64,000 nt of DNA. It comes from Escherichia phage slur14. The translations under genes and the position numbers were made by a program. Shown in pieces: positions 12,042-54,226 of this stretch. The notes beneath the pieces are model-generated. The model saw only the letters and a program-made list of their open reading frames with translations. It searched no databases and was not told the DNA's origin. How positions within the stretch are numbered: the stretch's first letter is position 1; each line of letters opens with the position of its first letter. The DNA lies in the sequence record NC_028448.1; one strand, 5' to 3'.

Positions 12042-12117
12042 TGGTCGAGGCAGTAGGGATCGAACCTACGACCTAGGACTTAGAAGGTCCTTGCTCTTCC
12101 TTCTGAGCTATGCCCCG
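12042..12117 (-). tRNA. tRNA-Arg (anticodon UCU)
   Basis: Hand-folded cloverleaf; anticodon loop CUUCUAA; T-arm GTAGG-TTCGATC-CCTAC; CCA encoded. Confidence 0.85.
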
Positions 12118-12121
12118 TAAT

Positions 12122-12197
12122 TGGGGTGACCGATGGGAGTCGAACCCATGACTACGAGAATCACAATCTCGAGTTCTACCAACTGAACTACGGCCAC
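12122..12197 (-). tRNA. tRNA-His (anticodon GUG)
   Basis: Acceptor GTGGCCG/CGGTCAC, discriminator C73, anticodon loop UUGUGAU, T-loop TTCGACT, CCA encoded; no encoded G-1. Confidence 0.7.
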
Positions 12198-12311
12198 ATT
12201 AATACCTACTCCAACAATCAAGATGTCTTCACACGAAATTAAGAGAAGAGTGATCAGTTCAACCCCTATAATCGCGTCAAGTAGATATTAATGTGACAGT
12301 TGTCACAAATT

Positions 12312-12386
12312 TGGCGGACGTGATAGGATTCGAACCTATAACCAATCGCTTAACAGGCGATCGCTCTGCCATTGAGCTACACATCC
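12312..12386 (-). tRNA. tRNA-Asn (anticodon GUU)
   Basis: Anticodon stem-loop ATCGC-CUGUUAA-GCGAT; T-arm ATAGG-TTCGAAT-CCTAT; CCA encoded. Confidence 0.7.
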
Positions 12387-12390
12387 AAAT

Positions 12391-12477
12391 TGGTGGGGAG
12401 TGGTGGAGTCGAACCACCCGAGTCGCAATGACAATGAATTTACAGTCCACACCGCTACCTCTACGGGATAACTCCCC
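12391..12477 (-). tRNA. tRNA-Tyr (anticodon GUA), long variable arm
   Basis: 87 nt; anticodon loop CUGUAAA; 16-nt variable arm resembling bacterial tRNA-Tyr; anticodon stem has two G-U pairs. Confidence 0.55.
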
Positions 12478-12486
12478 AAATTAATT

Positions 12487-12561
12487 TGGTGGCCCTGGGT
12501 GGAATTGAACCACCATCTGGCGATTATGAGTCGCTTGCTTGAACCTTCCAGCTACAGGGCC
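12487..12561 (-). tRNA. tRNA with anticodon CAU (Ile2-type or Met)
   Basis: Acceptor GGCCCTG/CAGGGCC; anticodon loop CUCAUAA; T-arm GGTGG-TTCAATT-CCACC; one A-C mismatch in the anticodon stem. Confidence 0.65.
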
Positions 12562-12562
12562 T

Positions 12563-12638
12563 TGGTGCTGATTGACGGAATCGAACCGCCGACGTCCTCA
12601 TTACAAGTGAGGTGCTCTACCTACTGAGCTAAATCAGC
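12563..12638 (-). tRNA. tRNA-Thr (anticodon UGU)
   Basis: Anticodon stem-loop CCTCA-CUUGUAA-TGAGG; T-loop TTCGATT; CCA encoded. Confidence 0.8.
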
Positions 12639-12644
12639 AAAAAC

Positions 12645-12734
12645 TGGCGGAGGCGATAGGATTTGAACCTATGAGTCGCCGGAGCGACTGCCGGTTTTCA
12701 AGACCGGTGCATTAAACCACTCTGCCACGCCTCC
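12645..12734 (-). tRNA. tRNA-Ser (anticodon UGA), long variable arm
   Basis: 90 nt; anticodon stem-loop CCGGT-CUUGAAA-ACCGG; long variable arm; T-loop TTCAAAT; CCA encoded. Confidence 0.8.
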
Positions 12735-12736
12735 AG

Positions 12737-12810
12737 TCTCCATACAAGGATTTGAACCTTGGACCTCCTGATCCCAAATCAGGCGCTCTACCAAACTGAG
12801 CTACACGGAG
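12737..12810 (-). tRNA. tRNA-Pro (anticodon UGG), 3' CCA not encoded
   Basis: Anticodon stem-loop CCTGA-UUUGGGA-TCAGG; T-loop TTCAAAT; 2-nt spacer to tRNA-Ser, so CCA must be added after processing. Confidence 0.8.
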
Positions 12811-12820
12811 TAAATTAAAT

Positions 12821-12894
<74 letters not shown>

Positions 12895-12899
12895 AAATT

Positions 12900-12986
12900 T
12901 GGTGCGAGAAGTGGGACTCGAACCCACAAGGAAATCATTCCGCAGCATTTTAAGTGCTGTGCCTTTACCAATTTGACCATTCTCGC
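12900..12986 (-). tRNA. tRNA-Leu (anticodon UAA), long variable arm
   Basis: 87 nt; anticodon stem-loop CAGCA-CUUAAAA-TGCTG; long variable arm; T-arm GTGGG-TTCGAGT-CCCAC; CCA encoded. Confidence 0.8.
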
Positions 12987-18429: not shown

Positions 18430-19020
18430 ATGCTCTTTACATTTTTTGATCCGATTGAATATGCGGCCAAAACGGTGAATAAAAACGCGCCGACTATTCC
18501 TATGACAGATATTTTTAGAAACTATAAAGACTATTTTAAACGCGCTCTTGCGGGATACCGCTTACGTACTTATTATATTAAAGGTTCACCACGCCCGGAA
18601 GAATTAGCAAATACTATATATGGAAATCCGCAGTTGTATTGGGTTTTATTGATGTGTAATGATAATTATGATCCGTATTATGGATGGATTACTTCGCAAG
18701 AAGCTGCTTATCAAGCATCTATACAAAAATACAAAAATGTAGGTGGAGACCAAATAGTATATCATGTGAATGAGAATGGTGAAAAATTTTATAATTTAAT
18801 ATCATACGATGATAATCCATATGTTTGGTATGACAAAGGTGATAAAGCTAGAAAATATCCTCAATATGAAGGAGCACTTGCTGCGGTCGATACGTATGAA
18901 GCTGCTGTTCTTGAAAATGAAAAACTTCGTCAAATAAAAATAATAGCAAAATCAGACATTAATTCATTTATGAACGACCTTATACGTATAATGGAGAAAT
19001 CTTATGGAAATGATAAGTAA
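18430..19020 (+). CDS. 53: gp53 baseplate wedge protein
   Basis: 196 aa; length and position match T4 gp53; GGAGGG RBS. Confidence 0.85.
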   Translation: MLFTFFDPIEYAAKTVNKNAPTIPMTDIFRNYKDYFKRALAGYRLRTYYIKGSPRPEELANTIYGNPQLYWVLLMCNDNYDPYYGWITSQEAAYQASIQKYKNVGGDQIVYHVNENGEKFYNLISYDDNPYVWYDKGDKARKYPQYEGALAAVDTYEAAVLENEKLRQIKIIAKSDINSFMNDLIRIMEKSYGNDK

Positions 19021-20731
19021 TAACCTTAATTGGTTTGTTGGTGTTGTTGAAGATAGAATGGACCCATTAAAATTAGGTCGTGTTCGTGTTCGTGTGGTTG
19101 GTCTGCATCCACCACAAAGAGCGCAAGGTGATGTAATGGGTATTCCAACTGAAAAATTACCATGGATGTCAGTTATTCAACCTATAACTTCTGCAGCAAT
19201 GTCTGGAATTGGAGGTTCTGTTACTGGACCGGTAGAAGGAACTAGAGTTTATGGTCATTTTTTAGACAAATGGAAAACTAACGGAATTGTCCTTGGCACG
19301 TATGGTGGAATAGTTCGCGAAAAACCGAATAGACTTGAAGGATTTTCTGACCCAACTGGGCAATATCCTAGACGTTTAGGAAATGATACGAACGTATTAA
19401 ACCAAGGTGGTGATGTAGGATATGATTCCTCTTCTAATGTTATTCAAGATAGTAACTTAGACACCGCAATAAATCCCGATGATAGACCACTATCAGAGAT
19501 TCCAACTGATGATAATCCAAATATGTCAATGGCTGAAATGCTTCGCCGTGATGAAGGATTAAGACTAAAAGTTTATTGGGATACTGAAGGATATCCGACA
19601 ATTGGTATTGGTCATCTTATCATGAAGCAGCCAGTTCGTGATATGGCTCAAATTAATAAAGTTTTATCGAAACAAGTTGGTCGTGAAATTACTGGAAACC
19701 CAGGTTCTATTACAATGGAAGAGGCGACGACTCTATTTGAACGTGATTTGGCTGATATGCAACGCGACATTAAATCACATTCTAAAGTAGGACCAGTCTG
19801 GCAAGCTGTCAACCGTTCTCGCCAAATGGCATTAGAAAATATGGCATTTCAGATGGGTGTTGGCGGTGTAGCTAAATTTAACACAATGTTAACTGCTATG
19901 TTAGCAGGAGATTGGGAAAAAGCATATAAAGCCGGTCGTGATTCATTGTGGTATCAACAAACAAAAGGCCGTGCATCCCGTGTTACCATGATTATTCTTA
20001 CGGGGAATTTGGAATCATATGGTGTTGAAGTGAAAACTCCAGCTAGGTCTTTATCGGCAATGGCTGCGACTGTAGCTAAATCTTCTGACCCTGCTGACCC
20101 TCCTATTCCAAATGACTCGAGAATTTTATTCAAAGAACCAGTTTCTTCATATAAAGGCGAATATCCTTATGTGCATACAATGGAAACTGAAAGTGGACAT
20201 ATTCAGGAATTTGATGATACCCCTGGGCAAGAACGATACAGATTAGTTCATCCAACTGGAACTTATGAAGAAGTATCACCGTCAGGAAGAAGAACAAGAA
20301 AAACTGTTGATAATTTGTATGATATAACCAATGCTGATGGTAATTTTTTGGTAGCCGGTGATAAAAAGACTAACGTCGGTGGATCAGAAATTTATTACAA
20401 CATGGATAATCGTCTTCACCAAATAGATGGAAGCAATACGATATTTGTTAGAGGCGATGAAACTAAGACGGTTGAAGGTAATGGAACTATCCTAGTTAAA
20501 GGTAATGTTACTATTGTAGTTGAAGGTAATGCTGACATTACAGTTAAAGGAGATGCTACCACTTTAGTTGAAGGTAATCAAACTAATACAGTAAATGGAA
20601 ATCTTTCTTGGAAAGTTGCTGGGACAGTTGATTGGGACGTTGGTGGTGATTGGACAGAAAAAATGGCATCTATGAGTTCTATTTCATCTGGTCAATACAC
20701 AATTGATGGATCGAGGATTGACATTGGCTAA
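19004..20731 (+). CDS. 5: gp5 baseplate hub / tail-associated lysozyme with beta-helix spike
   Basis: 575 aa; lysozyme domain MAEMLRRDEGLRLKVYWDTEGYPTIGIGHL; C-terminal VxGxxxxx repeats (VKGNVTIVVEGNADITVKGD...). Confidence 0.95.
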   Translation: MEMISNNLNWFVGVVEDRMDPLKLGRVRVRVVGLHPPQRAQGDVMGIPTEKLPWMSVIQPITSAAMSGIGGSVTGPVEGTRVYGHFLDKWKTNGIVLGTYGGIVREKPNRLEGFSDPTGQYPRRLGNDTNVLNQGGDVGYDSSSNVIQDSNLDTAINPDDRPLSEIPTDDNPNMSMAEMLRRDEGLRLKVYWDTEGYPTIGIGHLIMKQPVRDMAQINKVLSKQVGREITGNPGSITMEEATTLFERDLADMQRDIKSHSKVGPVWQAVNRSRQMALENMAFQMGVGGVAKFNTMLTAMLAGDWEKAYKAGRDSLWYQQTKGRASRVTMIILTGNLESYGVEVKTPARSLSAMAATVAKSSDPADPPIPNDSRILFKEPVSSYKGEYPYVHTMETESGHIQEFDDTPGQERYRLVHPTGTYEEVSPSGRRTRKTVDNLYDITNADGNFLVAGDKKTNVGGSEIYYNMDNRLHQIDGSNTIFVRGDETKTVEGNGTILVKGNVTIVVEGNADITVKGDATTLVEGNQTNTVNGNLSWKVAGTVDWDVGGDWTEKMASMSSISSGQYTIDGSRIDIG

Positions 20732-49949: not shown

Positions 49950-49974
49950 AATGAAGAAAGGGGCCGAAGCCCCT
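49950..49974 (-). terminator. terminator hairpin after hoc
   Basis: Minus strand GGGGC-UUCG-GCCCC then TTTCTTCATTTT; same 14-nt hairpin as at 9226..9239. Confidence 0.6.
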
Positions 49975-49979
49975 TATGA

Positions 49980-51974
49980 TTATGGATAGGTATAGATGAT
50001 ACCAGTTTCTAAAGCAGTTTTATGAATGATGTATCCATTACGCGATTCTTGGACATCAACTTCTGGATAGTCTTTCATCATCTTCTGAAGAGTGTAACGA
50101 TGCAGGTAGTATTTACTATCTGGATCTTCAGTTTTCCAATCTTTACCTTCTTCGGTCATTTTTTGGATTTCATCCATAACCCACCAACCGCACCAGATGT
50201 AAGCTGAAGTGCGATGTGGAAGAGGATGAACATAAGGCAATTCACCTTCTGGTTCTGGAGCAACTTTATCAGTTACCTGAACTTGACCTTCTGCTGTGAT
50301 AGTTTTGCTATCATAATCAGTAGCAGTAACAGTTGCAGTAACTTCAATAGTTTGACTTCCAATAGATGATGTATCAACAGTGTATACATTAGTTGACCCT
50401 TCTACTGGAGAAGAATCTTTCTTCCATGAATATTCGATTTGTGCTTCTTCTGGAGCATCCGTAACATTAGCAGTAAATGTAGCCGAAGCATCTTGCTGAA
50501 CGTTAATAGAAGGAGGAGTCAATGTAACCCGTGGATTCATTGTTTTCTTATTAACAGTCAATGATACTTCATTAGAAGTAACTTCCTTTTCATTGTAATT
50601 TTCTGCAGTTACTTGCGCTACACACTTAACTGTTTTAGCTCCAACTGTGGTAGGAGTATAGTTAAATGTAGTAGTAGTTTCTCCATCGACCAGAGAACCG
50701 TCAACATACCACTGATACGTAGCAGACGCTCCTGGTGGCTGTGAAGCCAAGGCAGCAGTAAATTGAACTGGGGTTCCAATTACTGCTGCAGCAGGATTAG
50801 CAGGAGTTACGGCTAACGTAGTTGTCTGTGTTTTCTTATTAACTGTTAATGATACTTCATTAGAAGTAACTGTTTTTGCGTCATAATCTGTTGCTGTTAC
50901 TTGCGCTACGCATTTAATTCTTTTTACTCCACTTGTAGTTGGAGTATAGCTAAATGTAGCAGAAGTCGCTTCACCAATTTGAGAATCATCTACATACCAC
51001 TGATACGTAGCAGATGCCCCATCAGGTTGAGAAGCTAAGGCAGCAGTAAATTCAACAGCTGTTCCGATTACTCCGGCAGCAGGATTAGCAGGAGTTACAG
51101 ATAGGGTAGTCGTTTGTGTTTTCTTGTTAACAGTCAAAGATACTTCATTCGAAGTAACTTCCTTTTCATTGTAATTTTCAGCAGTTACTTGGGCTACGCA
51201 TTTAATTCTTTTAACCCCACTTGTAGTTGGAGTGTAATTGAACGTAGCATTAGTTTCTCCACCAACTTGTGAATCATCTACATACCACTGATACGTAGCA
51301 GATGCTCCTAGCGGCTGCGAAGCTAAGGCAGCAGTAAATTGAACTGGGGTTCCAATTACTCCTGCTGGAGGACTATCAGGAGTTACTGCCAAAGTAGTTG
51401 TCTGCTCCTTTTTATTAACAGTCAGTGATACTTCATTAGAAGTAACGCTTAGTGCATCATAATCTGTCGCAGTTACTTGAGCCACACACTTAATTCTTTT
51501 TACCCCGCTTTCGGCAGGAGTGTAATTGAACGTAGCGTTAGTTGCTTCGTCTACAGGAGAACCGTCAACGTGCCATTGATACGTAGCGTTTGCACCTGAT
51601 GGCTGTGAAGCTAAGGCAGCGGTAAATTCAATTGGAGTTCCAATCACTCCAGCATCAGGGCTATCAGGAGTTACTGCCAACGTAGTTGACTGAGTTTTAT
51701 TTTTAACCGTGATAGTCGTAGTAATTTCTGCTGTTTCGGGACTACTATCGGCAACTTGATTTGTTGCAACAACTTTAATTGTTTTTGTTCCAGCAGGTCC
51801 TTTTAATACATAATTAAAAGTTGCTTCAGCTCCATCTTGTGGAACATCATCTACGCTCCAAGCATATGTAATAGGTCCATCTCCAGTTTGACCACTGGGT
51901 GTAGCAGTAAACTGCTGAGTCTGATCTATAACTCCAGTGGTGTTTTTAGGAGTTATATCAACTGTAAAAGTCAT
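49980..51974 (-). CDS. hoc: Hoc highly immunogenic outer capsid protein, expanded (six Ig-like domains)
   Basis: 664 aa; C-terminal capsid-binding region ...GELPYVHPLPHRTSAYIWCGWWVMDEI...; four tandem 96-aa repeats TTTLAVTP...SLTVNKK; 288 aa longer than T4 Hoc (376 aa). Confidence 0.85.
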   Translation of the reverse strand: MTFTVDITPKNTTGVIDQTQQFTATPSGQTGDGPITYAWSVDDVPQDGAEATFNYVLKGPAGTKTIKVVATNQVADSSPETAEITTTITVKNKTQSTTLAVTPDSPDAGVIGTPIEFTAALASQPSGANATYQWHVDGSPVDEATNATFNYTPAESGVKRIKCVAQVTATDYDALSVTSNEVSLTVNKKEQTTTLAVTPDSPPAGVIGTPVQFTAALASQPLGASATYQWYVDDSQVGGETNATFNYTPTTSGVKRIKCVAQVTAENYNEKEVTSNEVSLTVNKKTQTTTLSVTPANPAAGVIGTAVEFTAALASQPDGASATYQWYVDDSQIGEATSATFSYTPTTSGVKRIKCVAQVTATDYDAKTVTSNEVSLTVNKKTQTTTLAVTPANPAAAVIGTPVQFTAALASQPPGASATYQWYVDGSLVDGETTTTFNYTPTTVGAKTVKCVAQVTAENYNEKEVTSNEVSLTVNKKTMNPRVTLTPPSINVQQDASATFTANVTDAPEEAQIEYSWKKDSSPVEGSTNVYTVDTSSIGSQTIEVTATVTATDYDSKTITAEGQVQVTDKVAPEPEGELPYVHPLPHRTSAYIWCGWWVMDEIQKMTEEGKDWKTEDPDSKYYLHRYTLQKMMKDYPEVDVQESRNGYIIHKTALETGIIYTYP
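50544..51695 (-). repeat. four tandem ~288-bp coding repeats (Ig-like domain units) within hoc
   Basis: Recurring nucleotide block ttcttattaacagtcaatgatacttcattagaagtaac at about 50546, 50832, 51117, 51405; protein repeats 94-189, 190-285, 286-381, 382-477. Confidence 0.8.
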
Positions 51975-51983
51975 AAGTTATCC

Positions 51984-52664
51984 TTATTTTAATGTTACGA
52001 AAGAAGAATTGCGTGTTTCACGAATTAAAACTGATCCGTCACGGTTAATGTAATAAATTAAGCTAAATAAAGTTTGGTGTGCTGACGCATGCTCAAAACT
52101 TGTTGGGTGAGATTTCCAATCCGGAGTTTCAGCTATCCATTGATAAATCCACCAAGGAACAGTGCAGAATCCTGGATTTTTTCCAATCAGCTGAAGATTC
52201 GGACTAAAGTTTTCCGGAAGAGTAAATACAGACGGCTTTTCAGATTCAATAATCTCAGCTACAGCCTGCTCGAATTTTTCTTCAACAAAAGGAGTATCTT
52301 CAATCAAAACATCGGTATTTTCAGGAATTTTATCCGTTTCTACTACTTCAATTTTAATGTCAGATTTAACCGGAGAATCAATCAGAAGTGCTGCTTCTGG
52401 ATTGACTTCTTCATCGTCATATTTTAACCCCTCTGCAGCATCAGCAGCATCAATTAAGTCTTTAATAGATAACCCATCAGTCTCTGGCATAGGTTCACTA
52501 GCGAGCTTCTGGAGGGCTTCTTCAATATCATTAACGATATTATCAAAAGATTTATTCTTTTTGACCTTTATACCAAACTGTTCAGCATATTCAGCTAATT
52601 TAGCTTTAGCTTCTTTATTATCATCAAGAGCCTTCAGCTCTGCAATATAATCTTTATCTATCAT
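51984..52664 (-). CDS. inh: Inh inhibitor of prohead protease
   Basis: 226 aa; length and position (between hoc and uvsW) match T4 Inh. Confidence 0.75.
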   Translation of the reverse strand: MIDKDYIAELKALDDNKEAKAKLAEYAEQFGIKVKKNKSFDNIVNDIEEALQKLASEPMPETDGLSIKDLIDAADAAEGLKYDDEEVNPEAALLIDSPVKSDIKIEVVETDKIPENTDVLIEDTPFVEEKFEQAVAEIIESEKPSVFTLPENFSPNLQLIGKNPGFCTVPWWIYQWIAETPDWKSHPTSFEHASAHQTLFSLIYYINRDGSVLIRETRNSSFVTLK

Positions 52665-52677
52665 AATATTTCCTCAG

Positions 52678-52685
52678 TATAAATA
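52678..52685 (+). promoter_or_regulatory. late promoter TATAAATA for uvsW
   Basis: Exact TATAAATA 30 nt upstream of ATG 52715. Confidence 0.6.
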
Positions 52686-52714
52686 TAGATATATTTATTA
52701 CATGGTATTTAGAC

Positions 52715-54226
52715 ATGACTGACATTAAAGTACATTTTTATGATTTTAGTCACGTGAGAATTGATTGTGAAGAAAGTACATTTCATGAACTCCGTGATTT
52801 CTTTAGCTTTGAAGCTGATGGGTATCGTTTTAATCCGAAGTACAGATATGGCCACTGGGATGGACGAATCCGTCTTTTAGATTATAATCGTCTTCTTCCA
52901 TTCGGCTTAGTCGGGCAAATTAAAAAGTTCTGTGATAACTTTGGCTATAAAGCCTGGATTGACCCACAAATTAATGAAAAAGAAGAATTATCAAGAAAAG
53001 ATTTTGATGAATGGCTTTCTAAATTAGAAATCTATTCAGGAAATAAAAGAATTGAACCACACTGGTATCAAAAAGATGCAGTGTTCGAAGGATTAGTTAA
53101 TCGTCGTAGAATTCTTAATCTTCCAACATCCGCTGGTAAATCGTTAATTCAAGCTTTGCTTGCGCGATATTATTTGGAAAATTATGAAGGTAAAATTCTT
53201 ATCATTGTTCCAACAACTGCTCTGACAACTCAGATGGCTGATGACTTCGTCGACTATCGTCTATTCAGTCATGCAATGATAAAGAAAATTGGTGGCGGAG
53301 CATCAAAAGATGATAAATATAAAAATGATGCACCAGTCGTTGTTGGTACATGGCAAACTGTAGTAAAACAACCGAAAGAATGGTTCTCACAGTTTGGAAT
53401 GATGATGAATGATGAATGCCATCTTGCTACAGGAAAAAGTATTTCATCTATCATATCAGGTTTAAATAACTGTATGTTTAAATTTGGTTTGTCTGGTTCA
53501 TTACGTGACGGCAAAGCCAATATCATGCAGTATGTTGGAATGTTTGGTGAAATATTTAAGCCAGTAACGACCTCTAAATTAATGGAAGATGGACAAGTAA
53601 CTGAGTTAAAAATTAATAGTATTTTTCTTCGCTATCCCGATGAGTTCACTACTAAATTAAAGGGAAAAACTTACCAAGAAGAAATAAAAATTATTACTGG
53701 GCTCAGTAAAAGAAATAAATGGATCGCTAAATTAGCTATTAAGCTTGCACAAAAAGATGAAAACGCTTTTGTCATGTTTAAACATGTATCGCATGGTAAA
53801 GCTATTTTCGATTTAATTAAAAATGAATACGATAAAGTTTATTACGTATCAGGGGAAGTTGATACCGAAACCCGCAATATAATGAAAACCTTAGCTGAAA
53901 ATGGTAAAGGAATAATTATAGTAGCTAGTTATGGTGTATTTTCTACTGGTATTTCAGTTAAAAATCTACATCACGTTGTTTTAGCGCACGGTGTTAAATC
54001 AAAAATCATTGTATTACAAACAATCGGTCGTGTATTACGTAAGCATGGTTCTAAGACAATAGCAACAGTCTGGGATCTTATAGATGACGCGGGCGTTAAG
54101 CCAAAATCTGCTAATACGAAAAAGAAATATGTTCATTTGAACTATCTTTTAAAACACGGCATTGATCGTATTCAGCGCTACGCAGATGAAAAATTTAATT
54201 ACGTAATGAAAACAGTTAATTTATAA
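52715..54226 (+). CDS. uvsW: UvsW DNA/RNA helicase (SF2)
   Basis: 503 aa; MTDIKVHFYDFSHVRIDCEESTFHELRDFF...; Walker A PTSAGKS, DECH box; matches T4 UvsW. Confidence 0.92.
   Translation: MTDIKVHFYDFSHVRIDCEESTFHELRDFFSFEADGYRFNPKYRYGHWDGRIRLLDYNRLLPFGLVGQIKKFCDNFGYKAWIDPQINEKEELSRKDFDEWLSKLEIYSGNKRIEPHWYQKDAVFEGLVNRRRILNLPTSAGKSLIQALLARYYLENYEGKILIIVPTTALTTQMADDFVDYRLFSHAMIKKIGGGASKDDKYKNDAPVVVGTWQTVVKQPKEWFSQFGMMMNDECHLATGKSISSIISGLNNCMFKFGLSGSLRDGKANIMQYVGMFGEIFKPVTTSKLMEDGQVTELKINSIFLRYPDEFTTKLKGKTYQEEIKIITGLSKRNKWIAKLAIKLAQKDENAFVMFKHVSHGKAIFDLIKNEYDKVYYVSGEVDTETRNIMKTLAENGKGIIIVASYGVFSTGISVKNLHHVVLAHGVKSKIIVLQTIGRVLRKHGSKTIATVWDLIDDAGVKPKSANTKKKYVHLNYLLKHGIDRIQRYADEKFNYVMKTVNL

What the first reader, a model, noticed from the sequence alone, without database searches (positions are those of the whole stretch)
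49980..51974. Hoc capsid decoration gene enlarged by exactly three extra tandem Ig-like repeat units
The product is 664 aa against 376 aa for T4 Hoc, a difference of 288 aa, which is exactly three copies of the 96-aa unit seen four times in tandem (TTTLAVTP..AGVIGTP..FTAALASQP..ATYQWYVD..VKRIKCVAQVTA..SNEVSLTVNKK). Nucleotide copies are about 85-90% identical with a 288-bp period, implying recent unequal crossing-over. This would roughly double the length of the fibre projecting from each capsid hexamer. Hoc Ig-like domains are implicated in adherence to mucus and surfaces, so repeat number may tune an adhesion phenotype and could vary within a population.
Basis: partly seen in the sequence, partly recalled or inferred. 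Interest (0 to 1): 0.6.

Follow-up and report, generated by a model that had tools for sequence, protein, structure and literature searches.

The report
Four-repeat Hoc capsid fibre gene
This T4-like phage (slur03) carries a natural long allele of the capsid fibre gene hoc with four old, diverged copies of one Ig-like domain, and relatives hold one to four copies because the copies recombine with each other; it is a tidy but unsurprising case, since Hoc is already known to vary in domain number.

Summary
The ORF is real: 49980..51974 (-) encodes a 664-aa Hoc. It matches T4 Hoc (376 aa) at both ends and has exactly three extra 96-aa copies of Ig-like domain 2 (period 288 nt, in frame).

The claim of 85-90% identical copies from recent crossing-over is wrong. 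The four units (A-D) are 74-84% identical in DNA, with synonymous divergence of 0.55-1.7 and dN/dS of 0.08-0.26. Each unit is 95-100% identical to the same-position unit in other phages, so the duplicates are old and conserved.

Hoc lengths in T-even relatives step through 376, 472, 568 and 664 aa. Architectures are mostly ordered subsets of ABCD.

Three relatives carry chimeric units that are 98.6-100% identical to slur03 segments: T4_ev151 (B|C), Lutter (A|B|D) and fPS-90 (B|D). These look like recent in-register deletions of a slur03-like array. Unequal recombination therefore does change copy number, and every event seen here is a contraction.

An assembly artefact is unlikely. The expected result is a longer, more acidic fibre with six Ig-like domains, which is inferred and not shown. 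Variable Ig-domain number in Hoc is already published. Interest is modest.

The parts
49980..51974 (-). hoc coding sequence, 664 aa plus stop codon
   Evidence: ORF list. 100% identical to Escherichia phage slur03/slur08 hoc, annotated 'Hoc-like head decoration'. phmmer against T4 Hoc 5vf3_Z gives E = 4.7e-209.
51696..51974 (-). Ig-like domain 1 (aa 1-93), the N-terminal end, taken to be the outer tip of the fibre
   Evidence: Aligns to T4 Hoc 1-93. AF2 gives a beta-sandwich with pLDDT 82-92. This domain has its own ancestry: 98.6% nt identity to fPS-90 and Lutter, but only 84-86% to FJ1, Sfk20 and T4.
51408..51695 (-). repeat unit A (aa 94-189), Ig-like domain 2 copy 1
   Evidence: Unit coordinates. 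Best matches are the first units of other phages: fPS-90 96.2%, FJ1 94.4%.
51120..51407 (-). repeat unit B (aa 190-285), Ig-like domain 2 copy 2
   Evidence: 99.0% identical to FJ1 unit 2. T4_ev151 unit 2 nt 1-216 is 216/216 identical to it.
50832..51119 (-). repeat unit C (aa 286-381), Ig-like domain 2 copy 3
   Evidence: 97.2% identical to FJ1 unit 3 and 94.8% to ESh36 and UGKSEcP2 unit 2. Of the four units it is the closest to T4's single unit (88.5%).
50544..50831 (-). repeat unit D (aa 382-477), Ig-like domain 2 copy 4
   Evidence: 100% identical to the last units of FJ1 and T4_ev151 and 99% to ESh36.
50271..50543 (-). Ig-like domain equivalent to T4 Hoc domain 3 (aa 478-568)
   Evidence: Aligns to T4 Hoc 190-280. 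Pfam Ig_3 and I-set hits at 481-565. T4 D246, the site of the adherence-altering D246N change in PMC9271167, is conserved here as D534 in TNVYTVDTSS.
49980..50270 (-). C-terminal capsid-binding domain (aa 569-664) plus stop codon
   Evidence: Nearly identical to T4 Hoc 281-376, the domain that binds the gp23 hexamer (PMC10385173). Almost every column is invariant across 38 homologues. AF2 confidence is low here, pLDDT 37-62.
51981..51985 (-). Shine-Dalgarno-like AAGGA, 6 nt upstream of the hoc ATG and overlapping the inh stop codon
   Evidence: Read from the sequence. inh ends at 51984 and hoc starts at 51974, so the two genes are probably co-transcribed (inference).
49958..49975 (-). intrinsic-terminator-like hairpin (AAGGGGC-TTCG-GCCCCTT, then a T-rich tail) just after the hoc stop codon
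   Evidence: Consensus scan and sequence. fPS-90 has a terminator annotated at the same place.

Best explanation
The window is from Escherichia phage slur03 (Tequatrovirus). Its hoc gene is an intact, natural long allele. [quoted passage not shown] The same A-D unit types are shared across T-even phages (Tequatrovirus, and at least one Mosigvirus).

Copy number in this group (1, 2, 3 or 4 units, giving 376, 472, 568 or 664 aa) changes by in-register homologous recombination between units. The units share identical runs of 15-36 nt. The events visible today are deletions of one to three units from a slur03-like ABCD array, plus short conversion tracts.

Inferred, not shown: each of the roughly 155 Hoc fibres per capsid would have six Ig-like domains instead of three. 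It would be about 1.75 times as long (about 31 nm against 18 nm) and about twice as negatively charged. It would carry four copies of the domain-2 NEVSLT motif, which one study implicates in binding fucose on MUC2. These changes could alter the reach and valency of weak binding to glycans and surfaces.
For: Identity and intactness:
- 100% match to slur03 and slur08.
- Gene order is gene 24, rnlB, 24.2, 24.3, hoc, inh, uvsW, as in T4.
- Both ends align to T4 Hoc, and the excess is exactly 288 aa.

Ig-like nature of the units:
- Pfam PKD scores 65 bits against a cut-off of 23.5, in 4 stretches. BiPBP_C, PKD_4 and Ig_2 also pass their cut-offs.
- AF2 shows six beta-sandwich domains with pLDDT about 85-94.
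- Foldseek's top hits are multi-Ig ectodomains.

The duplicates are old:
- Units are 74-84% identical in DNA.
- dS is 0.55-1.70 and dN/dS is 0.08-0.26.
- In a neighbour-joining tree the units cluster by type across phages, not within a phage. Same-position units are 95-100% identical.

Copy number is quantal:
- hoc spans of about 1131, 1419, 1707-1713 and 1995 nt.
- Protein lengths of 376 (74 proteins), 472 (30), 568-570 (16) and 664 (3).
- Architectures found are ABCD; ABC, ABD, ACD; AB, AC, AD, BD.

Recent recombination:
- T4_ev151 unit 2 is B nt 1-216 (216/216 identical) followed by C nt 225-288 (64/64 identical). Informative sites run 42 B then 17 C.
- Lutter's single unit is A 15/15, then B 70/70, then D 160/160.
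- fPS-90 unit 2 is B 213/216, then D 61/61.
- FJ1 unit C contains a B-like patch.

Recombination substrate: identical runs of 15-36 nt between units. T4 makes tandem amplifications and deletions at homologies of only 2-10 bp (PMC9391042).

Not an artefact:
- The reads were 2 x 250 bp MiSeq (PMC4698387), far longer than the longest identical run between units, 36 nt.
- The same ABCD array is present in independent isolates from the UK (slur03, slur08, slur14), Portugal (FJ1) and India (Sfk20).

Functional leads:
- The T4 fibre is 180 A long, and Hoc homologues carry strings of up to 10 Ig-like domains (PMC10385173).
- Mutating S183, L184 or T185 in domain 2 abolishes MUC2 co-IP of PhiPNJ-9 Hoc (PMC11853027). 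NEVSLT occurs 4 times in slur03 Hoc and once in T4 Hoc.
- Net charge is -30 against -14 for T4 Hoc.
Against: - No experiment here shows that the 664-aa protein is made, binds the capsid or forms a longer fibre.
- The C-terminal domain modelled poorly.
- The role of domain 2 in adhesion is inconsistent in the literature. [quoted passage not shown] In T4 the adherence-altering mutation lies in domain 3 (PMC9271167). The extra units may therefore act only as spacers, or be nearly neutral.
- How the array was first built (stepwise growth to ABCD, or an ABCD ancestor) is not resolved.
- A 'CB' order in 8 two-unit protein clusters does not fit simple deletion from ABCD. That assignment is only a nearest-unit call at protein level on diverged alleles.
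- The copy-number census rests on the best-ranked and evenly sampled rows, not on all 655 records.
Confidence: 0.85

Rival explanations
1. slur03 expanded its hoc recently, from a T4-like single domain 2, by three rounds of unequal crossing-over. The four units would then be young, nearly identical copies private to this lineage.
For: Exact 288-nt period, in frame, exactly three extra units. T4-type phages readily make tandem amplifications (PMC9391042).
Against: Units are only 74-84% identical, with dS 0.55-1.70. Each unit has a 95-100% identical counterpart at the same position in FJ1, Sfk20, ESh36, ime09 and fPS-90. No multi-unit Hoc among 52 has two units more than 85.4% identical. T4's own unit is a mosaic, closest to C (88.5%), and is not a plausible parent of all four.
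Confidence: 0.03
2. Assembly artefact. The short-read assembler over-expanded a repeat, and the real gene has fewer units.
For: slur03 is a draft genome from 2 x 250 bp MiSeq reads assembled with SPAdes, with no long reads (PMC4698387). Several deposited T-even hoc genes are split or frameshifted.
Against: The longest identical run between units is 36 nt, far below the read length, so every unit is uniquely placeable. The ORF is intact. The same four-unit array was assembled independently for FJ1 (96.8% nt identity) and Sfk20 (92.5%), from other labs and countries. The identical protein is deposited for slur03, slur08 and slur14.
Confidence: 0.02
3. The array is real, but copy number is selectively near-neutral. 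Domain-2 units would be interchangeable spacers that drift in number through recombination, with no tuned adhesion phenotype.
For: Hoc is non-essential (PMC13248984, PMC10385173). All copy numbers from 1 to 4 coexist in closely related phages from similar sources such as sewage, slurry and faeces. In PhiPNJ-6, isolated domain 2 did not co-precipitate MUC2 (PMC11150434).
Against: Every unit is under purifying selection (dN/dS 0.08-0.26), and old paralogues have been kept intact in several lineages. Hoc homologues with many Ig-like domains persist widely (PMC10385173). Domain-2 residues are required for MUC2 binding in PhiPNJ-9 (PMC11853027).
Confidence: 0.3

Closest known systems
T4 Hoc (highly immunogenic outer capsid protein, 376 aa; PDB 5vf3, 8t1x, 8t9r)
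   Same: Same gene at the same locus. [quoted passage not shown] Acidic fibre.
   Different: Four paralogous copies of domain 2 instead of one: 664 aa against 376 aa, net charge -30 against -14, and the NEVSLT motif four times against once.
Other length classes of T-even Hoc: 472 aa (ime09, fPS-90, pSs-1, moskry) and 568 aa (ESh36, UGKSEcP2, YUEEL01, T4_ev151)
   Same: The same A-D unit types in the same order. Some carry chimeric units that are 98.6-100% identical to slur03 segments.
   Different: They hold 2 or 3 units. slur03, FJ1 and Sfk20 hold the full ABCD set, the longest class I found among close relatives.
Long Hoc homologues of other Straboviridae, such as Serratia phage Muldoon Hoc (1174 aa, 10 Ig-like domains; PMC10385173)
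   Same: A string of Ig-like domains ending in the Hoc capsid-binding domain. Representatives in which the query's C-terminal region aligns at the protein's own C-terminus range from 185 to about 1195 aa.
   Different: Distant sequences, about 30-35% identical. Their Ig-like domains are not copies of T4 domain 2.
PhiPNJ-9 'variant Hoc' lacking domain 3 (PMC11853027)
   Same: Shows that natural T4-like phages change Hoc domain content, and that domain 2 (S183, L184, T185) can be the MUC2-binding part.
   Different: It has lost a domain, whereas slur03 has a multiplied one.
BACON-domain tandem repeats in crAss-like phage proteins (de Jonge et al. 2019, cited in PMC9271167)
   Same: Variable numbers of tandem carbohydrate-binding-type domains on phage structural proteins.
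   Different: Unrelated fold, protein and phage group. I did not examine these here.

Membership tests
Hoc (T4-type head outer capsid decoration protein) | C-terminal capsid-binding domain homologous to T4 Hoc residues 281-376 | tested here: met
   Query 465-664 aligns to T4 Hoc 177-376 with near identity, 402.8 bits. The domain is almost invariant across 38 homologues.
Hoc (T4-type head outer capsid decoration protein) | N-terminal linear string of Ig-like domains | tested here: met
   Pfam PKD, PKD_4, Ig_2 and Ig_3 are above their cut-offs. The AF2 model has six all-beta domains over residues 1-568 with pLDDT about 85-94. Foldseek's best hits are multi-Ig ectodomains.
Hoc (T4-type head outer capsid decoration protein) | Conserved genomic position between inh and 24.3/24.2/rnlB, next to gene 24 and uvsW | tested here: met
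   ORFs in the window match the annotated T4, ime09 and RB33 loci.
Hoc (T4-type head outer capsid decoration protein) | One molecule bound at the centre of each gp23 hexamer (155 per capsid), dispensable for growth | not testable with these tools
   Needs virion proteomics, cryo-EM or a knockout. Known for T4 only (PMC10385173).
Hoc as a mucus-adherence (BAM) adhesin | Binding of mucin glycans or fucose by the Ig-like domains | not testable with these tools
   Only motif conservation could be checked: NEVSLT occurs 4 times, and the equivalent of T4 D246 is conserved. The literature disagrees on which domain binds (PMC11150434, PMC11853027, PMC9271167).
Recently amplified tandem gene segment (young unequal-crossover duplication) | Near-identical repeat units with little synonymous divergence, private to one lineage | tested here: not met
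   74-84% nt identity and dS 0.55-1.70. Units are shared with other phages at 95-100% identity.
Copy-number-polymorphic tandem domain array maintained by in-register homologous recombination | Discrete length classes differing by whole units, and chimeric units with clean breakpoints | tested here: met
   Length classes of 376, 472, 568 and 664 aa. Chimeras in T4_ev151 (B|C, 42 then 17 informative sites, uncorrected Fisher p = 3.6e-15), Lutter and fPS-90, with 98.6-100% identity to slur03 segments.

The most novel reading that the evidence does not exclude
The domain-2 array of hoc could act as a recombination-driven length and valency dial. In-register crossovers between the A-D units would change unit number (1 to 4) often enough to create standing heterogeneity inside single phage populations. 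Selection in different mucosal or particulate environments would then pick the fibre length and number of glycan-binding motifs that give the best adherence or dispersal. That would be a phase-variation-like contingency locus for a phage's interaction with the animal host rather than with the bacterium.
Probability: 0.15. Interest if true: 0.55.

Novelty: new member of a known kind. Interest (0 to 1): 0.3.

Why it matters
Hoc is the model protein for phage adherence to mucus, and it is the main display scaffold on T4 nanoparticle vaccines. It is useful to know that natural T-even phages offer an allelic series with 3, 4, 5 or 6 Ig-like domains (1 to 4 copies of domain 2), built from the same four conserved units. 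It is also useful that the array contracts cleanly by in-register recombination. Together these give a ready-made, near-isogenic series for testing how fibre length and valency affect mucin binding, pH-dependent clustering, immunogenicity and display geometry. The result also warns that hoc length may be unstable in therapeutic or engineered stocks. It does not change the current picture of what Hoc is.

Tried and rejected
- Recent duplication: rejected on pairwise identity, dS and unit orthology.
- Assembly artefact: rejected on the longest identical run (36 nt) against 250-nt reads, and on independent isolates (PMC4698387).
- A second gene hidden in the repeat on the plus strand: only mechanical ORFs of 51-61 aa, so not pursued.
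- Whole-chain Foldseek against the PDB: returned only generic multi-Ig proteins with low TM-scores, as expected for a flexible beads-on-a-string model. It adds nothing beyond 'Ig-like string'.
- The 50%-identity representative library: it did not list any close (over 56% identical) Hoc, so it could not say whether forms with five or more units exist among close relatives. It did show the wide length range of distant Hoc-like proteins.
- The IMG/VR scan: 21 loci and no four-unit array.
- Sathaliyawala 2010 and Fokine 2011 are not held in the paper library, so I could not check what they say about domain numbers.
- T4_ev151: I could not find a paper describing its origin. I therefore cannot say whether its B|C contraction arose in the laboratory.
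- Late promoter: the exact TATAAATA motif between inh and uvsW (52678-52685) is on the plus strand, facing uvsW. I did not establish the late promoter that drives inh-hoc.
Full report
**What is there.** The window matches Escherichia phage slur03 and slur08 at 100% identity over the region. These are Tequatrovirus isolates from UK cattle slurry (PMC4698387). An intact ORF at 49980..51974 on the minus strand encodes 664 aa. It sits in the T4 gene order: gene 24, rnlB, 24.2, 24.3, hoc, inh, uvsW. An AAGGA ribosome-binding site overlaps the inh stop codon. A GC-rich hairpin followed by a T-rich tail lies just past the hoc stop codon.

phmmer against PDB sequences finds T4 Hoc (376 aa) at E = 4.7e-209, in two blocks. 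Query 1-189 aligns to T4 1-189, and query 465-664 aligns to T4 177-376. The excess is therefore exactly 288 aa, three extra copies of the 96-aa Ig-like domain 2. Tandem Repeats Finder reports one array at 50541-51707, with period 288, 4.1 copies, 78% matches and score 1264. The repeat finder gives four copies spaced 288 nt apart. It is the only large tandem repeat in the 64-kb window.

I cut the array at aa 94-189, 190-285, 286-381 and 382-477 and called the units A, B, C and D. Their window coordinates are 51408-51695, 51120-51407, 50832-51119 and 50544-50831.

- Pairwise identity is 74.0-84.4% in DNA and 71.9-84.4% in protein, not 85-90%.
- Nei-Gojobori estimates between units give dS of 0.55-1.70 and dN/dS of 0.08-0.26.
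- That dS is larger than between slur03 and T4 in the flanking hoc domains, where it is 0.26-0.45.

The units are therefore old duplicates under purifying selection.

**Comparison with relatives.** Megablast finds 655 phage records with a match. The span of the match takes discrete values. In an evenly spaced sample of the ranking, I counted 49 rows that cover the whole gene. About 29 span roughly 1131 nt, about 18 span roughly 1419 nt, one spans 1713 nt and one spans 1995 nt. Proteins from the large collection fall into the same classes: 376 aa (74 proteins), 472 aa (30), 568-570 aa (16) and 664 aa (3). The 664-aa form occurs in these isolates:

| Isolate | Source | Evidence |
|---|---|---|
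| slur03, slur08, slur14 | UK cattle slurry | identical protein |
| vB_EcoM_FJ1 | Portugal, poultry sewage | 96.8% nt identity |
| Sfk20 | India, lake water | 92.5% nt identity |

I fetched 12 loci covering one to four units and split them into 288-nt units. In a neighbour-joining tree the units cluster by type across phages, not within a phage. slur03 unit D is 100% identical to the last unit of FJ1 and T4_ev151. Unit B is 99.0% identical to FJ1 unit 2, unit C is 97.2% identical to FJ1 unit 3, and unit A is 96.2% identical to fPS-90 unit 1.

A nearest-unit classification of 130 proteins gives these architectures: ABCD; ABC, ABD, ACD; AB, AC, AD, BD; and single units. A less clear 'CB' class appears in 8 clusters. 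Among 52 multi-unit proteins, no two units in the same protein are more than 85.4% identical. I therefore see no recent duplication anywhere in this sample.

**Recombination is visible directly.** The table shows three relatives whose units are chimeras of slur03 units.

| Phage, unit | Composition relative to slur03 units | Evidence |
|---|---|---|
| T4_ev151, unit 2 | B nt 1-216 (216/216 identical), then C nt 225-288 (64/64 identical); informative sites run 42 B then 17 C | |
| Lutter, single unit | A 15/15, then B 70/70, then D 160/160 | |
| fPS-90, unit 2 | B 213/216, then D 61/61 | |

These are the junctions expected from in-register crossovers that remove one, three and two units from a slur03-like ABCD array. 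The 98.6-100% identity means they happened recently. FJ1 unit C carries a short B-like tract, which is conversion-like. T4's own single unit is a mosaic of A-, B- and C-like segments.

The units share identical runs of 15-36 nt. T4 is known to make tandem amplifications and deletions at homologies of only 2-10 bp (PMC9391042). The events I can document are contractions of an old array, not its recent creation.

hoc is also mosaic on a larger scale. slur03 domain 1 is 98.6% identical to fPS-90 and Lutter but only 84-86% identical to FJ1, Sfk20 and T4. Its domain 3 plus C-terminal part is 98-99.8% identical to FJ1, Sfk20 and fPS-90.

**Artefact check.** slur03 was assembled from 2 x 250 bp MiSeq reads with SPAdes (PMC4698387). 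With at most 36 identical bases between units, the reads place uniquely. Three independent laboratories assembled the same four-unit ORF. Misassembly is very unlikely.

**What the protein should look like.** Pfam PKD, PKD_4, BiPBP_C, Ig_2 and Ig_3 all pass their curated cut-offs. An AlphaFold2 model built with a 38-sequence alignment has mean pLDDT 83. It shows six all-beta domains over residues 1-568 with pLDDT about 85-94, followed by a poorly modelled C-terminal domain. Foldseek returns multi-Ig ectodomains.

The T4 fibre is 180 A long for four domains (PMC10385173). Three more domains would add roughly 135 A, giving about 1.75 times the length. This is an inference.

The protein is 70.9 kDa with pI 4.55 and net charge -30, against -14 for T4 Hoc. 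This is relevant to the proposed pH-dependent clustering role of Hoc (PMC10385173).

The motif NEVSLT occurs four times in slur03 Hoc and once in T4 Hoc. Its S-L-T residues are required for MUC2 co-IP of the PhiPNJ-9 Hoc (PMC11853027). [quoted passage not shown] In T4 the adherence-altering D246N change lies in domain 3 (PMC9271167), and that residue is conserved here. Whether the extra units add binding sites, act as spacers that push domain 1 outward, or are nearly neutral remains open.

**What is already known.** Fokine et al. 2023 report about 650 Hoc homologues with strings of Ig-like domains, up to 10 in the 1174-aa Hoc of phage Muldoon (PMC10385173). Wu et al. 2024 state that T4-like phages differ in the number and arrangement of Hoc domains (PMC11150434). 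Fu et al. 2024 characterise a natural Hoc lacking domain 3 (PMC11853027). My profile-free search of representatives agrees: proteins in which the query's C-terminal region aligns at their own C-terminus range from 185 to about 1195 aa.

The slur03 protein is in RefSeq as 'Hoc-like head decoration'. In the papers I could search I did not find the specific picture for T-even phages: a four-type (A-D) domain-2 array, length classes of 376, 472, 568 and 664 aa, and identifiable contraction chimeras. It is a refinement of a known theme, not a new kind of system.

**Verdict.** It is wrong on recency. I rate novelty as a new member of a known kind, and interest as modest at 0.3.

Noticed in passing
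window 52665-52714 (between inh, 51984..52664 minus strand, and uvsW, 52715..54226 plus strand): slur03 has only a 50-nt gap here. T4, FJ1, T4_ev151 and ESh36 carry a 618-nt GIY-YIG homing endonuclease ORF (segD-like) at this spot. This fits the genome announcement's remark that the slur phages have fewer seg and mob genes (PMC4698387).
   Followed up: partly
window 12042-12986 (minus strand): A cluster of 10 tRNA genes: Arg-TCT, His, Asn, Tyr, Met/Ile-CAT, Thr, Ser, Pro, Gly, Leu. From memory, T4 has 8 tRNAs including Gln and lacks His, Asn and Tyr, so the set differs. I did not check this against a T4 record.
   Followed up: no
window 20471-20602 (inside the 575-aa ORF at 19004..20731, plus strand): A 24/48-nt tandem repeat encoding V-x-G-x-x-x-x-x-type octapeptides. 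It looks like the C-terminal beta-helix needle of the gp5 baseplate hub, which is a known feature. That assignment is from memory and was not tested.
   Followed up: no
window 51696-51974 against 49980-50543; loci L001, L002, L008, L011: hoc is mosaic beyond the repeats. Domain 1 of slur03 is 98.6% identical to fPS-90 and Lutter but only 84-86% identical to FJ1, Sfk20 and T4. Domain 3 plus the C-terminal domain is 98-99.8% identical to FJ1, Sfk20 and fPS-90. There seem to be two allele classes of domain 1, exchanged by recombination near the domain 1/unit A boundary.
   Followed up: partly
GenBank records MZ501066 (FriedrichMiescher), MZ234042 (PM107), MZ234018 (101117BS1), OR757454 (BYEP02), MK327940 (G29): Several deposited T-even hoc genes are annotated as two or three CDSs, or have spans that are off by 1-2 nt. 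These could be sequencing errors or genuine hoc pseudogenes, since hoc is non-essential.
   Followed up: no
GenBank records NC_027979 (RB68), MZ560701 (TU01), PV660450 (LF82-7), OL960576 (SA79RD): Matches of only about 867 nt to the first about 1425 nt of the query. This may be the short Hoc class lacking domain 3 that was described for PhiPNJ-9 (PMC11853027), or a diverged 3' part of the gene.
   Followed up: no
locus L009 (Escherichia phage moskry, a Mosigvirus): A two-unit (472-aa) hoc with A-like and B/C-like units occurs outside Tequatrovirus, with a 'repeat_region' annotated by the depositors. The polymorphism therefore spans at least two genera of Tevenvirinae.
   Followed up: partly
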